DNA of 64,000 nucleotides, taken from the sequence record OQ850289. One strand, written 5' to 3'. Positions 5,301 to 64,000 of the stretch are shown piece after piece; position 1 is the first letter of the stretch; each line of letters starts with the position of its first letter. The notes under the pieces are model-generated. The model was not told the origin of the DNA. It worked only from the letters and a program-made list of their open reading frames with translations, and did not search any database. The stretch is from Escherichia phage vB_EcoM_ULIM3. The translations under genes were made by a program, and so were the position numbers.

Positions 5301-5377
5301 CTCTGTTTAGCTCAGCTTGGTAGAGCGTTCCGTTTGGGGCGGTAAGGCCGGAGGTTCAAGTCCTCCAACAGAGACCA
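5301..5377 (+). tRNA. tRNA-Pro (TGG)
   Basis: acceptor ctctgtt/aacagag (C1-G72, disc A, CCA encoded); anticodon loop tttgggg; T-arm ggagg-ttcaagt-cctcc; one mismatch in anticodon stem. Confidence 0.6.
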
Positions 5378-5384
5378 AATTAAT

Positions 5385-5462
5385 GTTCCAGTAGACAAAA
5401 TGGTAAAGTCACCACTCTTTCAAAGTGGATATTTGAGGGTTCAAATCCCTTCTGGAACGCCA
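5385..5462 (+). tRNA. tRNA-Glu (TTC)
   Basis: acceptor gttccag/ctggaac; anticodon stem ccact/agtgg, loop ctttcaa; T-loop ttcaaat; CCA encoded. Confidence 0.7.
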
Positions 5463-5467
5463 GTTTT

Positions 5468-5544
5468 GACAGAAGACCAATTGCAGCAAACTTAATCTTA
5501 TTCATCTGAAGGTAAATCGGACAAAGAAGAGATTTGGTCTGGTC
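5468..5544 (+). ncRNA. stem-closed element A (CAGAAGACC...GGTCTGG family)
   Basis: 7-bp helix 5474-5480/5534-5540 (AGACCAA:TTGGTCT) closing a 53-nt AT-rich interior; fills the tRNA-sized spacer between two tRNAs. Confidence 0.4.
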
Positions 5545-5553
5545 ATTAAGAAT

Positions 5554-5630
5554 TGCGGGTATAGAGAAAGGGCGTCTCACATGTCTCATTAGCATGGTAT
5601 CGGCAGGTTCGACTCCTGCACCCGCCTCCA
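5554..5630 (+). tRNA. tRNA with CAT anticodon (Met or Ile2)
   Basis: anticodon stem catgt/gcatg, loop ctcatta; T-arm gcagg-ttcgact-cctgc; acceptor 6/7 paired; CCA encoded. Confidence 0.55.
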
Positions 5631-5634
5631 AATT

Positions 5635-5704
5635 TACAGAAGACCGTTTACAGCAAAATTGAATGAAATTTTTAGCGGAAAAAATTGAAAGATACGGTCT
5701 GGTA
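5635..5704 (+). ncRNA. stem-closed element B (CAGAAGACC...GGTCTGG family)
   Basis: 7-bp helix 5641-5647/5694-5700 (AGACCGT:ACGGTCT); first 28 nt identical to element D. Confidence 0.4.
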
Positions 5705-5715
5705 ATACTAAACAT

Positions 5716-5792
5716 GGTTAGGAAGCACATAAGGTATGTGCGGTCGCCTGTTAAGCGAATGGCACAGGGTTCGAATCCCTGACTAACCGCCA
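5716..5792 (+). tRNA. tRNA-Asn (GTT)
   Basis: acceptor ggttagg/actaacc; anticodon loop ctgttaa; T-arm caggg-ttcgaat-ccctg; CCA encoded. Confidence 0.65.
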
Positions 5793-5801
5793 AATTTAAA
5801 T

Positions 5802-5889
5802 GTGTCGTTATCCCGTAGATGGTAGCGGTGGGGACTGTAAATCCCTTGTCATTGAGACTCGGTAGGTTCGACTCCTACACGGCACACCA
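5802..5889 (+). tRNA. tRNA-Tyr (GTA), long variable arm
   Basis: acceptor gtgtcgt/acggcac; anticodon stem gggga/tccct, loop ctgtaaa; ~15-nt variable arm; T-arm gtagg-ttcgact-cctac. Confidence 0.7.
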
Positions 5890-5894
5890 ATAAA

Positions 5895-5971
5895 GGCTAT
5901 GTAGTTTAACTGGAGAAAATACTCCCCTGTCACGGGAGATGATGTGAGTTCAAGTCTCATCGTAGCCGCCA
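5895..5971 (+). tRNA. tRNA-Asp (GTC)
   Basis: acceptor ggctatg/cgtagcc; anticodon stem ctccc/gggag, loop ctgtcac; CCA encoded. Confidence 0.7.
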
Positions 5972-6056
5972 AATTATAATAAGTATTTCAAAATGATGTT
6001 TTGAGAGGGCTATTTAGCCCCTCCCTTAAAGGGTTCTTACGAGTATCCTTTAAAGG

Positions 6057-6134
6057 AGCAGAAGACCAAATTCAGCAAGTTACTTAAAATTTCAAGCCAA
6101 TTTAATTTTGAAAAATTTAAAACTTGGTCTGGCT
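6057..6134 (+). ncRNA. stem-closed element C (CAGAAGACC...GGTCTGG family)
   Basis: 7-bp helix 6063-6069/6124-6130 (AGACCAA:TTGGTCT); interior AT-rich hairpin. Confidence 0.4.
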
Positions 6135-6143
6135 CAACAAATT

Positions 6144-6278
6144 TACAGAAGACCGTTTACAGCAAAACTTAAACAATCTATTTCTCGGTAAAGAAAAGGC
6201 GAAGGTTCGATTCCTTCACTCGGCAGATGTCGAGTTGGTGTAATGGCAGCACTTAAGATGATAAACAACGGTCTGGTA
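6144..6278 (+). ncRNA. stem-closed element D with internal tRNA-like module
   Basis: 8-bp helix 6150-6157/6267-6274 (AGACCGTT:AACGGTCT); interior has T-arm-like gaagg-ttcgatt-ccttc (6201-6217) and D-loop-like agttggtgtaatgg (6231-6246) but no full cloverleaf. Confidence 0.4.
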
Positions 6279-6421
6279 ATTATCTTTGTAGATAAGTTAT
6301 TAAGCTTACCTGTGAGTATGCGACCACAAAGGGTGAAAGGGTAAATTCTAGATTTAAACCCAAAAAGGCACATCGCTACAGACCTTAAGCAAGTCTGGGT
6401 AGCTTATCTACAAAGATAATT
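6278..6421 (+). repeat. 19-bp perfect inverted repeat (6278-6296 / 6403-6421) enclosing 106 nt
   Basis: aattatctttgtagataag and its exact reverse complement; lies between element D and tRNA-Lys. Confidence 0.75.
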
Positions 6422-6425
6422 TAAT

Positions 6426-6501
6426 GGAAGTGTAGCAGAATGGTGATGCGGCAGACTTTTAATCTGACAGGCGATGGGTTCGAATCCCTCCACTTCTACC
6501 A
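6426..6501 (+). tRNA. tRNA-Lys (TTT)
   Basis: acceptor ggaagtg/cacttct; anticodon loop cttttaa; T-loop ttcgaat (T-stem only 3 bp); CCA encoded. Confidence 0.6.
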
Positions 6502-6505
6502 AAAT

Positions 6506-6582
6506 GGTTCAGTCGCAGATAAGGTAATGCAAGGGTCTCATAAGCCCTATGAATGTGGGTTCGATTCCCATCTGAACCTCCA
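6506..6582 (+). tRNA. tRNA-Met (CAT)
   Basis: acceptor ggttcag/ctgaacc; anticodon stem agggt/gccct, loop ctcataa; CCA encoded. Confidence 0.7.
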
Positions 6583-6584
6583 AT

Positions 6585-58128: not shown

Positions 58129-60273
58129 ATGAACAAAGTACAGATTATTAAAAAGAATGGCTCACTTGAAGAACCTGATATCAAAAAAGTTTTAGCAGCA
58201 GTAACTAAGTCAGCTAACAGGGTTGGATATAAAGAACTCCCACCAGATGTTACCCAAGCTCTTGAGTCAGCATTCATGAGGATTCTGGTAAAGTCCACTA
58301 AGCAGAATAATTTACTCATCTCAGTCAATGATATTCACAGCATTGTTGAGGGTGCTTTGGCAGAAGTCAATCACGAGATTTATGAGTCTTACTCAACATA
58401 CAGAAATTACCGGAAAGAGGTTGCTCAAAATTGGGATGAGCTTTACCAAAAGACTAGAGACACGCTCTTCTTAGGTGACCGTGAAAACGCTAACTTTGAC
58501 AGCAGTTTAATTTCTACAAAAGGTTCAATTATTCGTGGTTACCTGACTAAAGAAATCTTTAAGCAGTACCATTTAACACCAGAGGAACTTGAAGCCATTG
58601 AAAAAGGGTTTATCTACATCCATGACTTAAGAGACCTGATTTTTGGCGGCATTAACTGTTGCTTGTTTGACATTGGTAAAGTACTGAAAGGTGGCTTTGA
58701 AATGTCTGGCATCGAATACTGTGAACCGAAGTCTGTACTGTCAGCCTTACAGGTTATTGGTGATGTAGTTCTTTCAGCAACTGCACAGCAATTTGGCGGC
58801 TTTACTTTAGCAGAGATTGATAAGGTACTTGTACCGTATGCTAAGAAGTCTCTACGCTACCATGCTGAGAAAGCAGCATCTTATGGTATTCCTAAAGAAC
58901 ATTACCATAATTATATCATGGAGCAGCTACAGATTGAATTAACTCAAGGTTTTCAGTCACTTGAAATGAAACTGAACACTGTACCTTGCAGCCGTGGTGA
59001 TTTCGCATTCACAACTTTAACATTTGGTTTACTTGACTCAGATATGTCTAATGAAGACAACCGACTACAATACATGATTGCAAGTACTCTCCTAGATGTT
59101 CGTATGAATGGACAAGGTAAGAGCAAAAAACCTGTTGTATTCCCTAAACTTGTTTATATCTACGACCAGAAGAGACATGATGAAAATATCTGTCAAGGTC
59201 ACCTGTACAGTAAAGCTATTGAGTGTTGCTCTAAAGCAATGTATCCAGATTTCTTAAGTGTATCTGGTCATGGTGCTGTAGCAGAGGCTTTTGAGCGTTC
59301 TGGTAAGGTGATTTCACCGATGGGTTGCAGAGCCTTCTTATCTCCATATCTTAATGAGGATGGGGAAGAGTTCTATGTTGGTCGTGCTAACATTGGTGCT
59401 GTATCTTTGAACTTGCCAATGATTTACCAGTATTCTAAAGAGAATGGTTTAGATTTCTGGAAAGAGCTTGATAAGTACCTAGAGATGATTCGCAGCTTCC
59501 ACAAGAAACGCTACGAAATGATTGCTAATATGCCAGCAAGTTCTAACCCTCTTGCATTCACACAAGGTGGTTTGTACAAAGGTATTAAGAAACCTACTGA
59601 TAAGGTTGGTTGGGATATTGTGAAGTCCTTCACAGCTTCTTTTGGGGTTACCGCACTGGATGAGTTATCTGTTCTTGCTGAAGGTAAACGGCTGCATGAA
59701 GCTGGGAGCTATAGTTTTGCATACGATGTTCTGGCATACATTAACATGAAAACTGAAGAGTTTAAAAATGAAGATGGCTTCTTATATGCTGTCTATGGTA
59801 CTCCAGCAGAATCACTTTGTGGAACTCAGCTAAAACAGTTCAGAGAAATGTTTGGTGTTATTAAAGGCGTTTCTGACAAGGAATACTTTACAAACAGTTT
59901 CCATATGAATGTTACGGCAGACATCTCACCATTTGAGAAGCAGGACTTAGAAGAGCCATTCTTCCATATCTGTAGAGGTGGCAGAATCCAGTATGTAAGG
60001 GTAGCTAACCCAGAAAACTTAACAGCACTTAAAAGTTGTATTACCAGAGGGATGTTGAAGGGTTTTTATCAGGGACTTAACTTTGACTTAGCAATCTGTG
60101 AGCATTGTGGTAACAGACCAAAGGCTGATGTTGAAGAATGTGAGGTTTGCCATTCACATGATATCTCTGTGATTAACAGGGTGTGTGGGTATCTTGGGTG
60201 GACTAAGATTAAAGGCGAATCCCGAATGAACGATGCAAAAATTGCTGAGATTCGTGACAGAATCTCTATGTAA
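58129..60273 (+). CDS. nrdD: anaerobic ribonucleoside-triphosphate reductase (class III)
   Basis: 714 aa; C-terminal Zn-ribbon CEHCG...CEVC and glycyl-radical motif RVCGYLG. Confidence 0.85.
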   Translation: MNKVQIIKKNGSLEEPDIKKVLAAVTKSANRVGYKELPPDVTQALESAFMRILVKSTKQNNLLISVNDIHSIVEGALAEVNHEIYESYSTYRNYRKEVAQNWDELYQKTRDTLFLGDRENANFDSSLISTKGSIIRGYLTKEIFKQYHLTPEELEAIEKGFIYIHDLRDLIFGGINCCLFDIGKVLKGGFEMSGIEYCEPKSVLSALQVIGDVVLSATAQQFGGFTLAEIDKVLVPYAKKSLRYHAEKAASYGIPKEHYHNYIMEQLQIELTQGFQSLEMKLNTVPCSRGDFAFTTLTFGLLDSDMSNEDNRLQYMIASTLLDVRMNGQGKSKKPVVFPKLVYIYDQKRHDENICQGHLYSKAIECCSKAMYPDFLSVSGHGAVAEAFERSGKVISPMGCRAFLSPYLNEDGEEFYVGRANIGAVSLNLPMIYQYSKENGLDFWKELDKYLEMIRSFHKKRYEMIANMPASSNPLAFTQGGLYKGIKKPTDKVGWDIVKSFTASFGVTALDELSVLAEGKRLHEAGSYSFAYDVLAYINMKTEEFKNEDGFLYAVYGTPAESLCGTQLKQFREMFGVIKGVSDKEYFTNSFHMNVTADISPFEKQDLEEPFFHICRGGRIQYVRVANPENLTALKSCITRGMLKGFYQGLNFDLAICEHCGNRPKADVEECEVCHSHDISVINRVCGYLGWTKIKGESRMNDAKIAEIRDRISM

Positions 60274-60282
60274 AACTTGACA

Positions 60283-60323
60283 AGGTGATGTGGGTGTTGA
60301 TAGGCTTACATCACCTTTTTTAT
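60283..60323 (+). terminator. intrinsic terminator after nrdD
   Basis: aggtgatgt...acatcacct 9-bp stem followed by TTTTTT. Confidence 0.7.
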
Positions 60324-60427
60324 TGGATGTTAGACATGGCAGAGAGTATTATTGGGTTGTTCATAGGTTCTGTCTTACTAGGGTTCTTTTTAGGACTCTC
60401 TTATTGTGAGTTGAGAGATAAGTTAAA

Positions 60428-60628
60428 ATGTTTAAAATACCAAAAACGTTGATATACATACTACATATTCTAGTCTTCTTCTTTGGGGTTAGTGTTATGG
60501 TATGGGGTTTCTCAGACCCACAATGGAGTTTTGCATATCATGGTCAGATGGATTTATGGTCATGCTTCAAACCATTTTTAGGGTTAGCTATAGCATTCAG
60601 TGCATTGCCAACTAAGGTGAAATTATGA
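60428..60628 (+). CDS. small membrane protein
   Basis: 66 aa, hydrophobic. Confidence 0.3.
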   Translation: MFKIPKTLIYILHILVFFFGVSVMVWGFSDPQWSFAYHGQMDLWSCFKPFLGLAIAFSALPTKVKL

Positions 60629-61020
60629 TTAAGTTGAACCAAAAACAGTTAGAGTGGATTAAAGATTATGCCTCAGAGTGTGGCTCTTATGAAAAGAATC
60701 ACGTAAGATACTCAACATTCCACACGACCTTTACATTGTACATTAGTGACAACGTTCTAAGTGATTCCGTAGAAGATTGTGCAGCGTTGCCTAATGAGTT
60801 GCTTGACAAATTAGTTGTAGTCACTGGAACTTGGTCTGAAGAAGACGGCCATGAATTATCTAACGATGTTGTCTTCTACAGTATTGATAACATTATGAAT
60901 CCAGAGTACATTATGTTAATGACTTGTGCACAAGACTGTGTGCCATTGCAAAACTTCATTAAAGAGCACTGTGAAGAGTTTATTACTAAACTGGTTCCTT
61001 ATCAGGTGGTATTTGAATGA
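60625..61020 (+). CDS. hypothetical protein
   Basis: 131-aa ORF. Confidence 0.4.
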   Translation: MIKLNQKQLEWIKDYASECGSYEKNHVRYSTFHTTFTLYISDNVLSDSVEDCAALPNELLDKLVVVTGTWSEEDGHELSNDVVFYSIDNIMNPEYIMLMTCAQDCVPLQNFIKEHCEEFITKLVPYQVVFE

Positions 61021-61079
61021 GTAAAACAATTCGAAGAAAAGGTTTAAATAATATTTATATGTATTGGTGAGGTAACTAG

Positions 61080-61565
61080 ATGAATTACATGGAGATTAGG
61101 CCATTTGACACAGCTAATGGTGAAGGGGTTCGTGTAAGCCTCTTTGTAGCTGGTTGTAAGCACCACTGTGAAGGCTGCTTCAACAGGGAGTCTTGGAAGT
61201 TTAATGCTGGTAAAGAGTTTACTTATGCAAACCTCTACGGCATCATTAAGTTAATGGATGATGAGGCCATCAGTGGGTTGTCAATACTCGGTGGAGAACC
61301 TCTGGATGATAGAAATATTCGGGAGGTCACCAACATTTGTAAACGTATTAAAACTGTTTACCCAGAAAAGTCTATCTGGCTCTGGACAGGGTTTCAACTA
61401 CACGAAAAAATTCACTTAGATGTGATGAAATATGTTGACGTGGTGATTGATGGTAAGTATGATTCATCTAAACCAACAGTCAAACCTTATCGTGGTTCTG
61501 ATAACCAAAACCTCTGGAGAAAAGAGTATGGGTGGCAAGGTGATTGTCAATGGCGAGCAGAATAA
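61080..61565 (+). CDS. nrdG: anaerobic RNR activating enzyme (radical SAM)
   Basis: CKHHCEGC (CxxxCxxC) radical-SAM cluster motif near N-terminus; 161 aa; follows nrdD. Confidence 0.8.
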   Translation: MNYMEIRPFDTANGEGVRVSLFVAGCKHHCEGCFNRESWKFNAGKEFTYANLYGIIKLMDDEAISGLSILGGEPLDDRNIREVTNICKRIKTVYPEKSIWLWTGFQLHEKIHLDVMKYVDVVIDGKYDSSKPTVKPYRGSDNQNLWRKEYGWQGDCQWRAE

Positions 61566-61646
61566 ATTTAAATGTTGGTGACAGTATTGTTGGTGTCACT
61601 GAAAAGAACTTAAAACATTTTGTGAAAAGATTGAGAGAGATATGAA

Positions 61647-61904
61647 ATGGGACTCTGGAATAGTTTTAAATCAAAAGTAAAAGCAGCACTAGCTTCATTA
61701 GGTATGCTCACTGGTGTTGATGTGGCTCATCTTATGCAGAACTTCAAGATGGATGAGAAGCTGGCTAATGAGATTATGAAAAGTATCTATGTAGGCCGTG
61801 GTAAAGGTGGTAAGAAACAAGCACATCGACCAACTGGTGCAGCAGCTATTAAACGGGCAGCTAAGAAAGCTCGTAACCGTAAACGTAATAAGAAGGCTAA
61901 ATAA
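61647..61904 (+). CDS. hypothetical protein with basic C-terminus
   Basis: 85-aa ORF. Confidence 0.35.
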   Translation: MGLWNSFKSKVKAALASLGMLTGVDVAHLMQNFKMDEKLANEIMKSIYVGRGKGGKKQAHRPTGAAAIKRAAKKARNRKRNKKAK

Positions 61905-61906
61905 TC

Positions 61907-62227
61907 ATGAGCAAAGTTTATAACACTCGTAAATTACAGATTTTCGTACTGTGCCAGTTTATGGCTAAAGAGTATAACTACTACTACTGTGGCACAGGGT
62001 TCATCAGTGACAATGACGGCTCATATCTACCGTTCAAAGAGGCTGTAAAACTCTTCAATGAAGAAGTAAGCTCTAAGAAAGATATCGAAAAGGTTAAGCT
62101 AACCTACAGTAAGAAAGATAAGAAGATTATCTGCCTAGATAACTTTGTAAAAGTTACTGGAGAAGCAAAAGAGTTTATGGATGAGAGTGAGATTTCATTC
62201 ACAAGCATCTTGAAAGTAGCTCAGTAA
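61907..62227 (+). CDS. hypothetical protein
   Basis: 106-aa ORF. Confidence 0.35.
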   Translation: MSKVYNTRKLQIFVLCQFMAKEYNYYYCGTGFISDNDGSYLPFKEAVKLFNEEVSSKKDIEKVKLTYSKKDKKIICLDNFVKVTGEAKEFMDESEISFTSILKVAQ

Positions 62228-62238
62228 ACAGATACTAT

Positions 62239-62270
62239 AAGGGAACTGTAAAGGTTCCCTTTTTATTTTG
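62239..62270 (+). terminator. intrinsic terminator
   Basis: gggaac-tgtaaag-gttccc hairpin followed by TTTTTATTTT. Confidence 0.7.
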
Positions 62271-62278
62271 GAGATAAC

Positions 62279-62629
62279 ATGTATCTGTCAAACCTGAAAC
62301 GTTCTGCTGCAATGTCAGTGTTAAGACTCAGTTTTGATGAGCGTCAAGAGTTTATAGACTCCCACAAATATGACCCTTCAAATTCTAATCACATGGTTCT
62401 TTGGAATCGTGATAACTTCCGTGAAAGAGCACTTGTCCGTTATTACCCACACTACACAATAGATAACCTGTATGAATGGTGTGTTGTGAAGAACACCATT
62501 GCAACACTGAACAATCTTTGCAGGTATACGGGTAAGCAAACATTTACATTAGGTCATCACAAACCTGTTACAAAAGGTGGTGAACATCACTGTGCAAACT
62601 GGTTTATCCAAACTAAAGCTGATAACTAG
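62279..62629 (+). CDS. hypothetical protein
   Basis: 116-aa ORF. Confidence 0.35.
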   Translation: MYLSNLKRSAAMSVLRLSFDERQEFIDSHKYDPSNSNHMVLWNRDNFRERALVRYYPHYTIDNLYEWCVVKNTIATLNNLCRYTGKQTFTLGHHKPVTKGGEHHCANWFIQTKADN

Positions 62630-62786
62630 AAGCAAGGAGATAGCCTCCTAAGTATCCCTAAGATGACCTATGAAGAGCAAGAGAAATATATCAAAAATAA
62701 TATGCCAGATGTGCTTGACAACAACTATACAGATTTGGCAATATCTCTCCTGTTGAAGTTCGAGACAGTTTATAGGGCAACTTATA

Positions 62787-63065
62787 ATGGCTAAAGAAAA
62801 GTGGGAGATTTTACCATTAGTCAGTGAAGGAGGTAATGGTTGTGAAATGTACATGATACGTGGTCATGTTCCAGAGCCAATTGCACTTGAGATGGTAAAC
62901 AACTTTACAGATGGTTCTTACAAAGACTTAGGCGAACCAACTGTCAAGCAACAATGGGTTAAACCTGTACCAGACAGCACAGGTAACTGTAGTGTACTTT
63001 ATCACGTTGTAGACCCTGCAAAATGCAAATCTGCAATGGCAGTAACAAACGTAACTTTTGATTGA
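62787..63065 (+). CDS. hypothetical protein
   Basis: 92-aa ORF. Confidence 0.35.
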   Translation: MAKEKWEILPLVSEGGNGCEMYMIRGHVPEPIALEMVNNFTDGSYKDLGEPTVKQQWVKPVPDSTGNCSVLYHVVDPAKCKSAMAVTNVTFD

Positions 63066-63958
63066 GAGAGAAAACTATGAAAACATCTATCCGTGTCACA
63101 ATTCATTCACCGACTAAAGGAACTCATGAAGAAGAGTTTAACATAATCCAATTCCCTTCTGGTGAGATTGGTGGCCACTTTTCACAAGAGCTTGTTGATT
63201 TTACTGCTTATGCAGCATCATCTATTAACAATGTGGTTATGATTGTAAAGGGTTATGACAAAGACACACTGTTTGCTGTGGCACTGGCTAAAGAAGCAAT
63301 TGACGATTTAGTTCCTCATGATTATGCCCTGAAGACTGTCATTTTTTACTACTTGCCAAATGCACGATACGACCGTCACATGTTTAAAGGCGACGCAGCA
63401 GCTTTAAAGGTTTTTGCTAAACAGGTAAATGCAATGGGATTTGGTGCAGTCTGTGCAGTTGACCCTCACAGTTATGTACCAGATAACCTGTTTAACTGCT
63501 TCCAAAGTATTCCTCAAAAGGAGATTGCAGTCCACTATGCAAATGACCCTCTAATTGATTACTTAGTAGCCCCAGATGCAGGTGCTTCTAAGAAGATTGC
63601 AGAGACTGCTAAAGAGGTGGATAAACCATATATCACAATGTCTAAGGTGCGAAATCTTAAGACTGGAGAAATCACTGGTATGCGAATCCTTGACGATGTT
63701 GATTTGACCGATAAAACCGTCATGATTCTTGATGATATCTGTGATGGTGGTCGAACCTTCGTAGAGGCAGCTAAACACCTACGTGAAGCAGGTGCAAAAC
63801 GTGTTGAGCTTTATGTAACACATGGTATCTTCTCTAAAGGTGTTGAAAACCTTCTTGACAACGGTATCGACCATATTTACACTACAAACTCTTTAGGCGA
63901 AGCTAAAGACCGTGGCTTAACACATTATGGTCAAGTTACTGTAGCAAACATTGATTAG
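63062..63958 (+). CDS. prs: ribose-phosphate pyrophosphokinase-like (PRPP synthetase family; could be Prs or an ADP-ribose-specific paralogue)
   Basis: FPSGEI, NARYDRH, VDPHS and DDICDGGRT motifs line up with the E. coli Prs motifs FSDGEV, YARQDRR, VDLHA and DDMIDTGGT as I recall them. Confidence 0.8.
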   Translation: MREKTMKTSIRVTIHSPTKGTHEEEFNIIQFPSGEIGGHFSQELVDFTAYAASSINNVVMIVKGYDKDTLFAVALAKEAIDDLVPHDYALKTVIFYYLPNARYDRHMFKGDAAALKVFAKQVNAMGFGAVCAVDPHSYVPDNLFNCFQSIPQKEIAVHYANDPLIDYLVAPDAGASKKIAETAKEVDKPYITMSKVRNLKTGEITGMRILDDVDLTDKTVMILDDICDGGRTFVEAAKHLREAGAKRVELYVTHGIFSKGVENLLDNGIDHIYTTNSLGEAKDRGLTHYGQVTVANID

Positions 63959-64000
63959 GTAACAGTATGAATAAGGGTTATTTTGAAAGATACCTAATAT

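What the first reader, a model, noticed from the sequence alone, without database searches (positions are those of the whole stretch)
63062..64000. PRPP-synthetase-family gene at the window edge: possible NAD+ salvage or reconstitution module
The protein has the Prs signature motifs. Phage Prs-family enzymes have been described both as genuine PRPP synthetases working with nicotinamide phosphoribosyltransferase and as ADP-ribose pyrophosphate synthetases in the NAD+ reconstitution pathway that counters NAD-depleting defence systems. The partner gene would lie downstream; only its first 11 codons (ATG at 63967) are in this window.
Basis: partly seen in the sequence, partly recalled or inferred. 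Interest (0 to 1): 0.5.

Follow-up and report, generated by a model that had tools for sequence, protein, structure and literature searches.

The report
Phage ADP-ribose pyrophosphate synthetase (NARP1 Adps)
This is a complete copy of a phage gene already shown in a close relative to help rebuild NAD+ after bacterial defences destroy it, so it is a known counter-defence gene, not a new one.

Summary
The gene is real, complete and not cut by the window edge. It runs 63077..63958 (+) and encodes 293 aa; the TTG at 63062 is only the mechanical ORF start. The window comes from a FelixO1-like phage (Felixounavirus). The protein is a weak member of the PRPP-synthetase family, scoring 118.7 bits on TIGR01251 against a cut-off of 113. 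It is the syntenic orthologue (79% identity) of Bas63_0079. That protein is the founding in vivo example of Adps, the first enzyme of NAD+ reconstitution pathway 1 (NARP1, Osterman et al.). All mutationally validated acceptor-site residues and the catalytic lysine of the structurally solved ICP1 Adps are conserved.

The ORF starting at 63967 is not the partner gene. It is the start of an HNH/AP2 homing endonuclease inserted between adps and namat. A metagenome contig encoding the identical Adps, and three related phages with the same junction, carry adps, then the HNH gene (163 aa), then Namat (593 aa). Namat therefore most likely starts about 0.5 kb beyond the window end.

Verdict: already known, low interest. 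The only mildly unusual point is two deeply diverged N-terminal alleles of adps circulating among near-identical Felixounaviruses.

The parts
63077..63958 (+). adps: complete CDS (293 aa plus stop) for a Prs-like ADP-ribose pyrophosphate synthetase, the first enzyme of NARP1
   Evidence: ORF. Family hits. 79% identical and syntenic to Bas63_0079. 34% identical to the structurally characterised ICP1 Adps and 30% to FADO Adps. An identical protein lies on metagenome contig L014.
63064..63070 (+). Shine-Dalgarno-like GAGAGAG, 6 nt upstream of the ATG at 63077
   Evidence: Read directly from the sequence. Conserved in Bas63 and ULIM8. Mushroom annotates an RBS at the equivalent place.
63644..63646 (+). 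Codon for Lys190, which aligns with the catalytic Lys185 of ICP1 Adps. The published equivalents are Lys162 of SpbetaL1 Adps and Lys197 of B. subtilis Prs.
   Evidence: Alignment mapping. K185A and K162A abolish activity (PMC13586617; bioRxiv 10.1101/2024.02.11.579819).
63731..63757 (+). Codons for D219-D220-I221-C222-D223-G224-G225-R226-T227: the ribose-binding Asp pair plus the remodelled PP loop, which is the ATP donor site in Adps
   Evidence: Aligns with ICP1 D212-D213-I214-C215-D216-G217-A218-A219-S220. E. coli Prs has DDMIDTGGT at this position. Roles are taken from PMC13586617.
63967..64000 (+). First 11 codons of an HNH_3/AP2 homing-endonuclease gene inserted between adps and namat; cut by the window end
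   Evidence: Identical to the start of the 163-aa HNH genes of ULIM8 and contig L014. Pfam HNH_3 E=2e-19 on those full-length proteins. 34 phage records share the junction; the downstream ORF is named an HNH/homing endonuclease wherever it has a functional name.

Best explanation
[quoted passage not shown] NAD+-depleting defences such as SIR2-HerA, type I Thoeris, DSR1/2 and SEFIR cleave NAD+ into ADP-ribose and nicotinamide. Adps is a hexameric enzyme with a PRPP-synthetase fold. It binds ADP-ribose in the interdomain groove that canonical Prs uses for ADP and ribose-5-phosphate. It binds ATP through a remodelled PP loop (here C222-T227) and a beta-hairpin carrying Lys190. It then transfers the beta,gamma-pyrophosphate of ATP to the 1'' hydroxyl of the terminal ribose, giving ADPR-PP and AMP. 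The partner enzyme Namat, a Nampt homologue, replaces the pyrophosphate with nicotinamide and regenerates NAD+.

In this phage the two genes are most likely separated by a selfish HNH homing-endonuclease gene, whose first 11 codons are the last feature in the window. Namat itself lies beyond the window end.

What is shown here: gene integrity, family membership, orthology and synteny, residue conservation, and the adps-HNH-namat order in contigs carrying the identical protein. What is inferred from published work on orthologues: the chemistry and the counter-defence role.
For: 1. Source. The window is a Felixounavirus: 181 phage records cover at least 80% of 60000-64000, mostly at 90-95% identity. 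The nearest are VpaE1_ev035 at 98.6% and ULIM8 at 97% over 24 kb.

2. Orthology. Bas63 (JohannRWettstein, MZ501086) is a Felixounavirus with the same gene order: nrdD, nrdG, small genes, bas63_0079 and bas63_0080. The window protein is 79% identical to Bas63_0079 over all 293 residues with no gaps.

3. Published function of the orthologues. Deleting Bas63 genes 79-80 sensitised the phage about 20-fold to SIR2-HerA. ADPR-PP (m/z 720.010) appeared only with wild-type phage plus the defence system. The SpbetaL1 homologue gave no product in the canonical Prs-type assay and made ADPR-PP from ADPR plus ATP.

4. Residue conservation. Against the ICP1 Adps structure paper (PMC13586617), R87/H121/D161/K185/D212/D213/I214/C215/D216/F221 map to R97/H131/D167/K190/D219/D220/I221/C222/D223/F228. 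All of these are also identical in Bas63.

5. Profile behaviour matches known Adps rather than cellular Prs. TIGR01251 scores are 118.7 for the window, 138.5 for Bas63, 98.2 for ICP1 and 96.5 for FADO, against 422.7 bits for E. coli Prs. No Prs equivalog cut-off is reached. PF13793 is absent or sub-threshold in all four Adps-type proteins, against 179.5 bits in E. coli Prs.

6. Partner gene. A metagenome scaffold of 89,323 bp encodes the identical 293-aa protein, followed by HNH_3 (163 aa) and a 593-aa NAMPT_N/NAPRTase protein. ULIM8, VpaE1_ev108 and Mushroom have the same order. ULIM8 Namat is 96% identical to Bas63_0080.

7. Selection. The gene is under purifying selection: dN/dS is 0.16 against Bas63 and 0.03-0.06 against closer alleles.
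Against: No enzymology exists for this allele or, in vitro, for any Felixounavirus Adps; the Bas63 protein did not purify.

The N-terminal 180 residues are only 67% identical to Bas63.

The two aromatic residues that stack on the ADPR adenine in ICP1 (F18, F92) align with H17 and M102. An aromatic F103 is adjacent to M102, and the N-terminal alignment is uncertain. PP-loop residues A218-A219-S220 are G225-R226-T227 here.

Namat is not in the window, so its presence in this particular genome is inferred.
Confidence: 0.9

Rival explanations
1. It is a genuine PRPP synthetase. It makes PRPP from ribose-5-phosphate for a phage nicotinamide phosphoribosyltransferase, giving NMN by classical salvage, as the database annotations say.
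For: All public records annotate it as ribose-phosphate pyrophosphokinase and the partner as nicotinamide phosphoribosyltransferase. TIGR01251 is just passed. The core catalytic residues of Prs are retained.
Against: For the Bas63 orthologue, NAD+ recovery did not need the host NMN-to-NAD+ routes (pncC and nadR deleted), and ADPR-PP was the metabolite found. The SpbetaL1 homologue showed no Prs activity. The profile scores match those of proven Adps, far below cellular Prs, and no equivalog cut-off is met. The PP loop reads DDICDGGRT instead of DDMIDTGGT. No Nmnat gene is annotated next to the pair in the relatives examined.
Confidence: 0.04
2. It is a dual-specificity enzyme. It pyrophosphorylates ADP-ribose, and it also supplies PRPP for phage nucleotide synthesis, which would fit its place at the end of the nucleotide-metabolism cluster (nrdAB, nrdDG).
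For: The gene sits directly downstream of nrdA/B/D/G and other nucleotide-metabolism genes. In ICP1 Adps the acceptor groove is the conserved Prs surface. Felixounavirus Adps was never assayed in vitro with R5P.
Against: The only homologue tested for the canonical Prs reaction gave no product. In 97% of Adps-clade genes a Namat lies within 10 genes, which points to a dedicated pathway. In Adps the loop that holds the R5P 5-phosphate in Prs is used to bind ATP.
Confidence: 0.05
3. It is a decaying or non-functional remnant: a gene split from its partner by a homing endonuclease, in a mosaic region that also carries a nonsense mutation nearby.
For: An amber stop interrupts the conserved gene two genes upstream. 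The region from 62300 onward is a recombinant block. An HNH gene separates adps from namat.
Against: The ORF is intact and full length. dN/dS is 0.03-0.16. The identical protein is found in independent metagenome contigs. The adps-HNH-namat arrangement is shared by 34 phage records, with Namat intact in those examined. All key residues are conserved.
Confidence: 0.01

Closest known systems
Bas63_0079 (Escherichia phage JohannRWettstein, MZ501086): Adps of NARP1, Osterman et al. 'Phages reconstitute NAD+ to counter bacterial immunity'
   Same: Same virus genus and same position after nrdG and four small genes. Same length of 293 aa, 79% identity with no gaps. The C-terminal 113 residues are 98% identical, and all mapped active-site residues are identical.
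   Different: The N-terminal 180 residues are only 67% identical, a second allele class with dS about 1.4. Bas63 has a 45-nt spacer with a hairpin between adps and namat, whereas this phage has an HNH homing-endonuclease gene there.
Vibrio phage ICP1 Adps (gp228, UniProt F1D1Q1): crystal and cryo-EM structures, NAR 2026 (PMC13586617)
   Same: Two-domain Prs-like enzyme followed by Namat. R87, H121, D161, K185, D212, D213, I214, C215, D216 and F221 are conserved as R97, H131, D167, K190, D219, D220, I221, C222, D223 and F228. Shared DDICDG motif.
   Different: 34% identity overall. The adenine-stacking F18 and F92 align with H17 and M102, with F103 adjacent. PP-loop AAS is GRT here. The window protein is 13 residues longer, with a longer C-terminus.
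Bacillus phage SpbetaL1 and FADO Adps (biochemically and genetically characterised NARP1)
   Same: Same family and same adps-namat pairing. The catalytic Lys is conserved: FADO K168 aligns with K190.
   Different: 30% identity to FADO. The FADO PP loop reads DDLSSYGGT, so the DDICDG motif is not universal in the clade.
Canonical ribose-phosphate pyrophosphokinase (Prs/PRPS; E. coli Prs, human PRPS1, archaeal class III Prs 4twb)
   Same: Same fold and catalytic core: the RxDR motif, the DPH/DLH His, the Asp pair and a Lys in the catalytic loop. The best solved-structure match is Sulfolobus Prs, E=8e-18.
   Different: 23% identity to E. coli Prs. TIGR01251 gives 118.7 against 422.7 bits. There is no PF13793 hit, and no equivalog cut-off is met. 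The PP loop differs, and the C-terminus is shorter than in E. coli Prs. By orthology, the acceptor substrate is ADPR rather than R5P.
NARP2 (KVP40 Nampt plus Nmnat) and NARP3 (PnuC plus NadR)
   Same: Same purpose: restoring NAD+ during infection of hosts with NAD+-depleting defences.
   Different: NARP2 starts from PRPP and needs an Nmnat. NARP3 imports nicotinamide riboside. Neither uses a Prs-like enzyme, and no Nmnat, NadR or PnuC gene is annotated next to adps in the relatives.

Membership tests
Adps (ADPR-pyrophosphate synthetase, NARP1) | Sequence places it with experimentally characterised Adps proteins rather than with cellular Prs | tested here: met
   79% identical to Bas63_0079, 34% to ICP1 Adps, 30% to FADO Adps and 23% to E. 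coli Prs. Same syntenic slot as in Bas63. Profile scores match those of known Adps. No phylogenetic tree was built here.
Adps (ADPR-pyrophosphate synthetase, NARP1) | Catalytic lysine on the beta-hairpin (ICP1 K185, SpbetaL1 K162) | tested here: met
   K190 aligns with ICP1 K185 and FADO K168.
Adps (ADPR-pyrophosphate synthetase, NARP1) | Acceptor-groove residues R87, H121, D161, D212, D213, D216 (ICP1 numbering) | tested here: met
   R97, H131, D167, D219, D220, D223.
Adps (ADPR-pyrophosphate synthetase, NARP1) | Remodelled PP loop that binds the ATP donor (ICP1 C215-S220), reported as conserved among Adps homologues | tested here: inconclusive
   C222-D223-G224 are identical to ICP1. A218-A219-S220 is G225-R226-T227 here. 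In ICP1 those contacts are described as backbone amides. FADO reads SSYGGT.
Adps (ADPR-pyrophosphate synthetase, NARP1) | Aromatic residues stacking on the ADPR adenine (ICP1 F18 from the neighbouring protomer, and F92) | tested here: inconclusive
   They align with H17 and M102. F103 is adjacent to M102 and F21 lies nearby. The N-terminal alignment is of low confidence.
Adps (ADPR-pyrophosphate synthetase, NARP1) | A Namat gene within about 10 genes (true of 97% of the Adps clade) | not testable with these tools
   The window ends 42 nt after adps. In contig L014, which encodes the identical Adps, Namat starts 515 nt after the adps stop, behind an HNH gene. ULIM8, VpaE1_ev108 and Mushroom have the same arrangement. 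Namat is directly adjacent in Bas63, VpaE1_ev035 and CHB7.
Adps (ADPR-pyrophosphate synthetase, NARP1) | Converts ADPR plus ATP to ADPR-PP plus AMP and does not make PRPP | not testable with these tools
   Enzyme assay needed. Shown for the SpbetaL1, ICP1 and DyoEdafos homologues, and in vivo for Bas63.
Canonical PRPP synthetase (Prs, EC 2.7.6.1) | Reaches the curated score of a Prs equivalog or subfamily model | tested here: not met
   Only the broad TIGR01251 model is passed, at 118.7 against 113. NF002320 gives 89.8 against 297, NF002095 103.6 against 296, and all others are far below. E. coli Prs control: 532.6 and 422.7 bits.
Canonical PRPP synthetase (Prs, EC 2.7.6.1) | Recognisable Prs N-terminal domain (PF13793) | tested here: not met
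   No PF13793 hit at E up to 0.1. E. coli Prs scores 179.5 bits. The N-terminal domain is still alignable to archaeal Prs 4twb from residue 15.
Canonical PRPP synthetase (Prs, EC 2.7.6.1) | Ribose-5-phosphate-binding loop DxxxDTGGT | tested here: not met
   DDICDGGRT here against DDMIDTGGT in E. coli Prs.

The most novel reading that the evidence does not exclude
Felixounaviruses that are otherwise nearly identical carry one of two adps alleles. The alleles differ deeply over residues 4 to about 175: 67% amino-acid identity and saturated synonymous divergence. This stretch covers the N-terminal domain that forms the hexamer core and the adenine side of the ADPR pocket. The C-terminal domain and the flanking genes are 92-98% identical. 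The most novel reading not excluded is a maintained polymorphism with functional meaning. The two N-terminal domains might differ in acceptor range (for example ADPR versus modified ADPR species produced by different defences). Or one might escape a host factor that senses or inhibits Adps.
Probability: 0.06. Interest if true: 0.45.

Novelty: already known. Interest (0 to 1): 0.12.

Why it matters
It matters little as a discovery. NARP1 was discovered in exactly this kind of phage, and the pathway has since been characterised biochemically, structurally and genetically.

It has practical value in three ways. First, public records for this gene in hundreds of Felixounaviruses still call it 'ribose-phosphate pyrophosphokinase' and its partner 'nicotinamide phosphoribosyltransferase', which mis-states the chemistry. 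Second, FelixO1-like phages are used for typing, biocontrol and therapy, and carrying NARP1 predicts resistance to NAD+-depleting defences such as SIR2-HerA, type I Thoeris, DSR and SEFIR. Third, the homing endonuclease wedged into the operon and the two adps allele classes are ready-made natural variants for asking how tolerant the pathway is to operon disruption and to N-terminal-domain divergence.

Tried and rejected
- Accessory NARP1 genes. I looked for those described recently: the Macro-domain phosphatase Adpp (NARP1-AP) and the RyR-domain glycosidase RyDEP. Pfam scans covered the four small genes upstream of adps in the window and the genes after Namat in relatives. They found no Macro or RyR domain, only DUF7390 in the 106-aa protein at 61907..62227. 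HHpred-level sensitivity was not available.
- NARP3 (PnuC plus NadR). The paper shows it involves no Prs-like enzyme, so it is irrelevant here.
- Positive selection as the cause of the divergent N-terminal half. Rejected as the main cause: dN/dS is 0.16 and dS about 1.4, which indicates old divergence under purifying selection moved around by recombination.
- Whether the adps allele type tracks the HNH insertion. It does not do so simply. CHB7 has the window-type allele without the HNH gene. VpaE1_ev035 and Bas63 have the other allele, also without it.
- The exact source genome. It is not in the phage collection, where the best match is 98.6% over 24 kb. An exact-protein look-up found metagenome contigs 97.2% identical over the last 2.4 kb.
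- A solved Adps structure. The PDB sequence search returned none, only Prs enzymes.
- Searches not run. I judged structure prediction and the large homology searches unnecessary and did not run them.
- Locating the Bas63 record took several guessed accessions.

Full report
**What is in the sequence.**
The + strand carries an open reading frame from 63062 (TTG) to 63958. The TTG overlaps the TGA stop of the preceding 92-codon gene. The likely start is the ATG at 63077, six bases after a GAGAGAG Shine-Dalgarno-like run. That ATG is the annotated start of the equivalent 882-nt gene in six related phages. The gene is therefore 63077..63958, encodes 293 aa, and is complete; it is not cut by the window edge. 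The last 34 bases of the window (63967..64000) open a new ORF, MNKGYFERYLI.

**Family.**
- The protein matches PHROG 619 'ribose-phosphate pyrophosphokinase' over its whole length, E=3e-97.
- It hits Pfam PF14572 and PF00156.
- It hits NCBIfam TIGR01251 at 118.7 bits, barely above the 113-bit cut-off, and misses every Prs equivalog cut-off by a wide margin.
- The Prs N-terminal domain model PF13793 gives no hit.
- The best solved structure is Sulfolobus class III Prs 4twb, E=8e-18 over residues 15-274, and no Adps chain was returned.
- As a control, E. coli Prs scores 422.7 bits on TIGR01251 and 179.5 bits on PF13793. The proven Adps proteins of Bas63, ICP1 and FADO score 138.5, 98.2 and 96.5 bits on TIGR01251, with PF13793 absent or below threshold.
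- The window protein therefore behaves like known Adps proteins and unlike cellular Prs.

**Source and synteny.**
The window is a FelixO1-like myovirus (Felixounavirus). 181 phage records cover at least 80% of 60000-64000, mostly at 90-95% identity. The nearest records over 24 kb are VpaE1_ev035 (98.6%) and ULIM8 (97%). The gene follows nrdA, nrdB, nrdD, nrdG and a few small genes, exactly as in other members.

**Link to published work.**
Osterman et al. (bioRxiv 10.1101/2024.02.11.579819) discovered NAD+ reconstitution pathway 1 in BASEL phage Bas63 (JohannRWettstein), genes 79-80.
- Deleting the two genes made the phage about 20-fold more sensitive to SIR2-HerA.
- ADPR-pyrophosphate appeared only with wild-type phage plus the defence system.
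- NAD+ recovery did not need the host genes pncC and nadR.
- The SpbetaL1 homologue made ADPR-PP from ADPR plus ATP and gave no product in the canonical Prs-type assay.
- 97% of Adps-clade genes have a Namat within ten genes.

I located the record (MZ501086, a Felixounavirus). bas63_0079 occupies the same slot, and the window protein is 79% identical to it over 293 residues without gaps.

Later work adds context. Structures of ICP1 Adps were reported in PMC13586617. DyoEdafos Adps/Namat was reconstituted in vitro. 859 NARP1 loci were counted in 20,185 phage genomes.

**Active site.**
I aligned the window protein with Bas63, ICP1 and FADO Adps and E. coli Prs and mapped the ICP1 residues.

| ICP1 residue(s) | Window residue(s) | Status |
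|---|---|---|
| R87 / H121 / D161 / D212 / D213 / D216 (acceptor groove) | R97 / H131 / D167 / D219 / D220 / D223 | conserved |
| K185 (catalytic Lys) | K190 | conserved |
| I214 / C215 | I221 / C222 | conserved |
| F221 | F228 | conserved |
| A218-A219-S220 (rest of PP loop; backbone contacts in ICP1) | G225-R226-T227 | differs |
| F18 (adenine stacking) | H17 | differs |
| F92 (adenine stacking) | M102, with F103 adjacent | differs |

The N-terminal alignment is weak, so I score the last two features as inconclusive. Every mapped residue is identical between the window allele and the Bas63 allele.

**The downstream ORF is not the partner.**
In a three-way alignment, the window matches ULIM8 base for base from the adps stop to position 64000. 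Bas63 has a different 45-nt spacer there. The ULIM8 gene that starts there is a 163-aa HNH_3 (E=2e-19) plus AP2 protein, and Namat follows it.

The 45-nt junction occurs in 34 phage records. Wherever the ORF downstream of the prs-like gene has a functional name, it is an HNH or homing endonuclease.

An exact-sequence look-up found the identical 293-aa protein on an 89,323-bp metagenome scaffold and on a Logan contig. These are 97.2% identical to the window over its last 2.4 kb and have the identical junction. On the scaffold the order is adps, HNH_3 (163 aa), then a 593-aa NAMPT_N/NAPRTase protein starting 14 nt after the HNH stop. The shorter Logan contig shows the same order but ends inside the third gene. 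VpaE1_ev108 and Mushroom show the same three-gene order.

ULIM8 Namat is 96% identical to Bas63_0080. So the partner almost certainly exists in this phage, but starts about 0.5 kb past the window end.

**Mechanism (inferred by orthology).**
- A host NADase cleaves NAD+ to ADPR and nicotinamide.
- Adps binds ADPR in the interdomain groove.
- It holds ATP with the PP loop and beta-hairpin.
- It transfers the beta,gamma-pyrophosphate to O1'' of the terminal ribose, with Lys190 assisting.
- Namat exchanges the pyrophosphate for nicotinamide.
- The net reaction is ADPR + nicotinamide + ATP -> NAD+ + AMP + PPi.

No terminator-like hairpin lies between 62261 and 64000. A promoter-like site sits at 62760-62788, so adps is probably co-transcribed with its neighbours. 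These are consensus matches only.

**Rivals.**
- A true PRPP synthetase feeding Nampt is what the databases say. It conflicts with the Bas63 and SpbetaL1 data, the profile scores and the altered PP loop (confidence 0.04).
- Dual specificity cannot be excluded, because no Felixounavirus Adps has been assayed in vitro (0.05).
- A decaying gene is contradicted by the intact ORF, dN/dS of 0.03-0.16 and the identical copies in independent samples (0.01).

**Allele structure.**
Against Bas63, residues 1-180 are 67% identical (nucleotide identity 71%, dS 1.42, dN/dS 0.16). Residues 181-293 are 98% identical, and the upstream gene is 95.5% identical at the DNA level.

The tblastn identity bands show about 154 records at 90% or more and 93 records at 60-80%. 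The nearest whole-genome relative, VpaE1_ev035, carries the other allele. The window is 100% identical to it from about 61800 to 62200, then falls to 62-90% from 62300 onward.

This pattern fits old divergence shuffled by recombination rather than recent positive selection. A functional polymorphism is not excluded, but I give it about 6%.

**Verdict.**
The NARP1 reading is right and the salvage reading is very unlikely. The thing is already known, and interest is low.

Noticed in passing
window 62279..62794 (+), stop at 62627-62629: The conserved 171-codon gene two genes upstream of adps (homologue of bas63_0077, with an HNH-like GHHKPVTKGGEHHCANW motif) carries an in-frame TAG. ULIM8, Bas63, VpaE1_ev035 and metagenome contig L014 all have CAG at that position. 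The gene is split into 116-aa and 43-aa ORFs. This could be a nonsense mutation, a sequencing error or a suppressible amber.
   Followed up: partly
window ~62250 to 64000: Recombination breakpoint. The window is 100% identical to VpaE1_ev035 from about 61800 to 62200, then only 62-90% identical from 62300 to 63958. The break sits at a terminator-like hairpin (62239-62261). The adps module was evidently swapped in as a block.
   Followed up: partly
window 63077..63616 (adps codons 1-180): Two deeply diverged allele classes of the Adps N-terminal half circulate among Felixounaviruses: 67% amino-acid identity, dS about 1.4, dN/dS 0.16. The C-terminal half and the flanking genes are 92-98% identical.
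   Followed up: partly
window 63967..64000 and beyond: An HNH_3/AP2 homing-endonuclease gene is wedged between adps and namat in 34 phage records, and is absent from Bas63, VpaE1_ev035 and CHB7. It replaces a 45-nt spacer that in Bas63 contains a GGGGCTT-GAA-AAGCCCC hairpin.
   Followed up: partly
window 5301..10245 (+): An array of 26 tRNA genes covering most amino acids, as is typical of FelixO1-like phages.
   Followed up: no
window 58129..60273 (+): nrdD is one uninterrupted 714-codon ORF here. The Bas63 nrdD is annotated as joined from two pieces around a homing-endonuclease gene, and CHB7, contig L014 and Mushroom have extra genes (HNH or homing endonucleases in CHB7 and Mushroom, an unannotated 185-aa ORF in L014) between nrdD and nrdG. 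Mobile-endonuclease content varies at several sites in this cluster.
   Followed up: no
window 61907..62227 (+): The 106-aa protein upstream of the adps block hits Pfam DUF7390 (E=1.5e-17). Its function is unknown, and the gene is conserved next to the NARP1 region in relatives.
   Followed up: no
public records (e.g. LC739530-LC739532, phiWec172/174/177): Annotation inconsistency. The adps orthologue is labelled with the gene name 'nadR' and the product 'ribose-phosphate pyrophosphokinase'. In every annotated record listed, it is still named as Prs rather than Adps.
   Followed up: no
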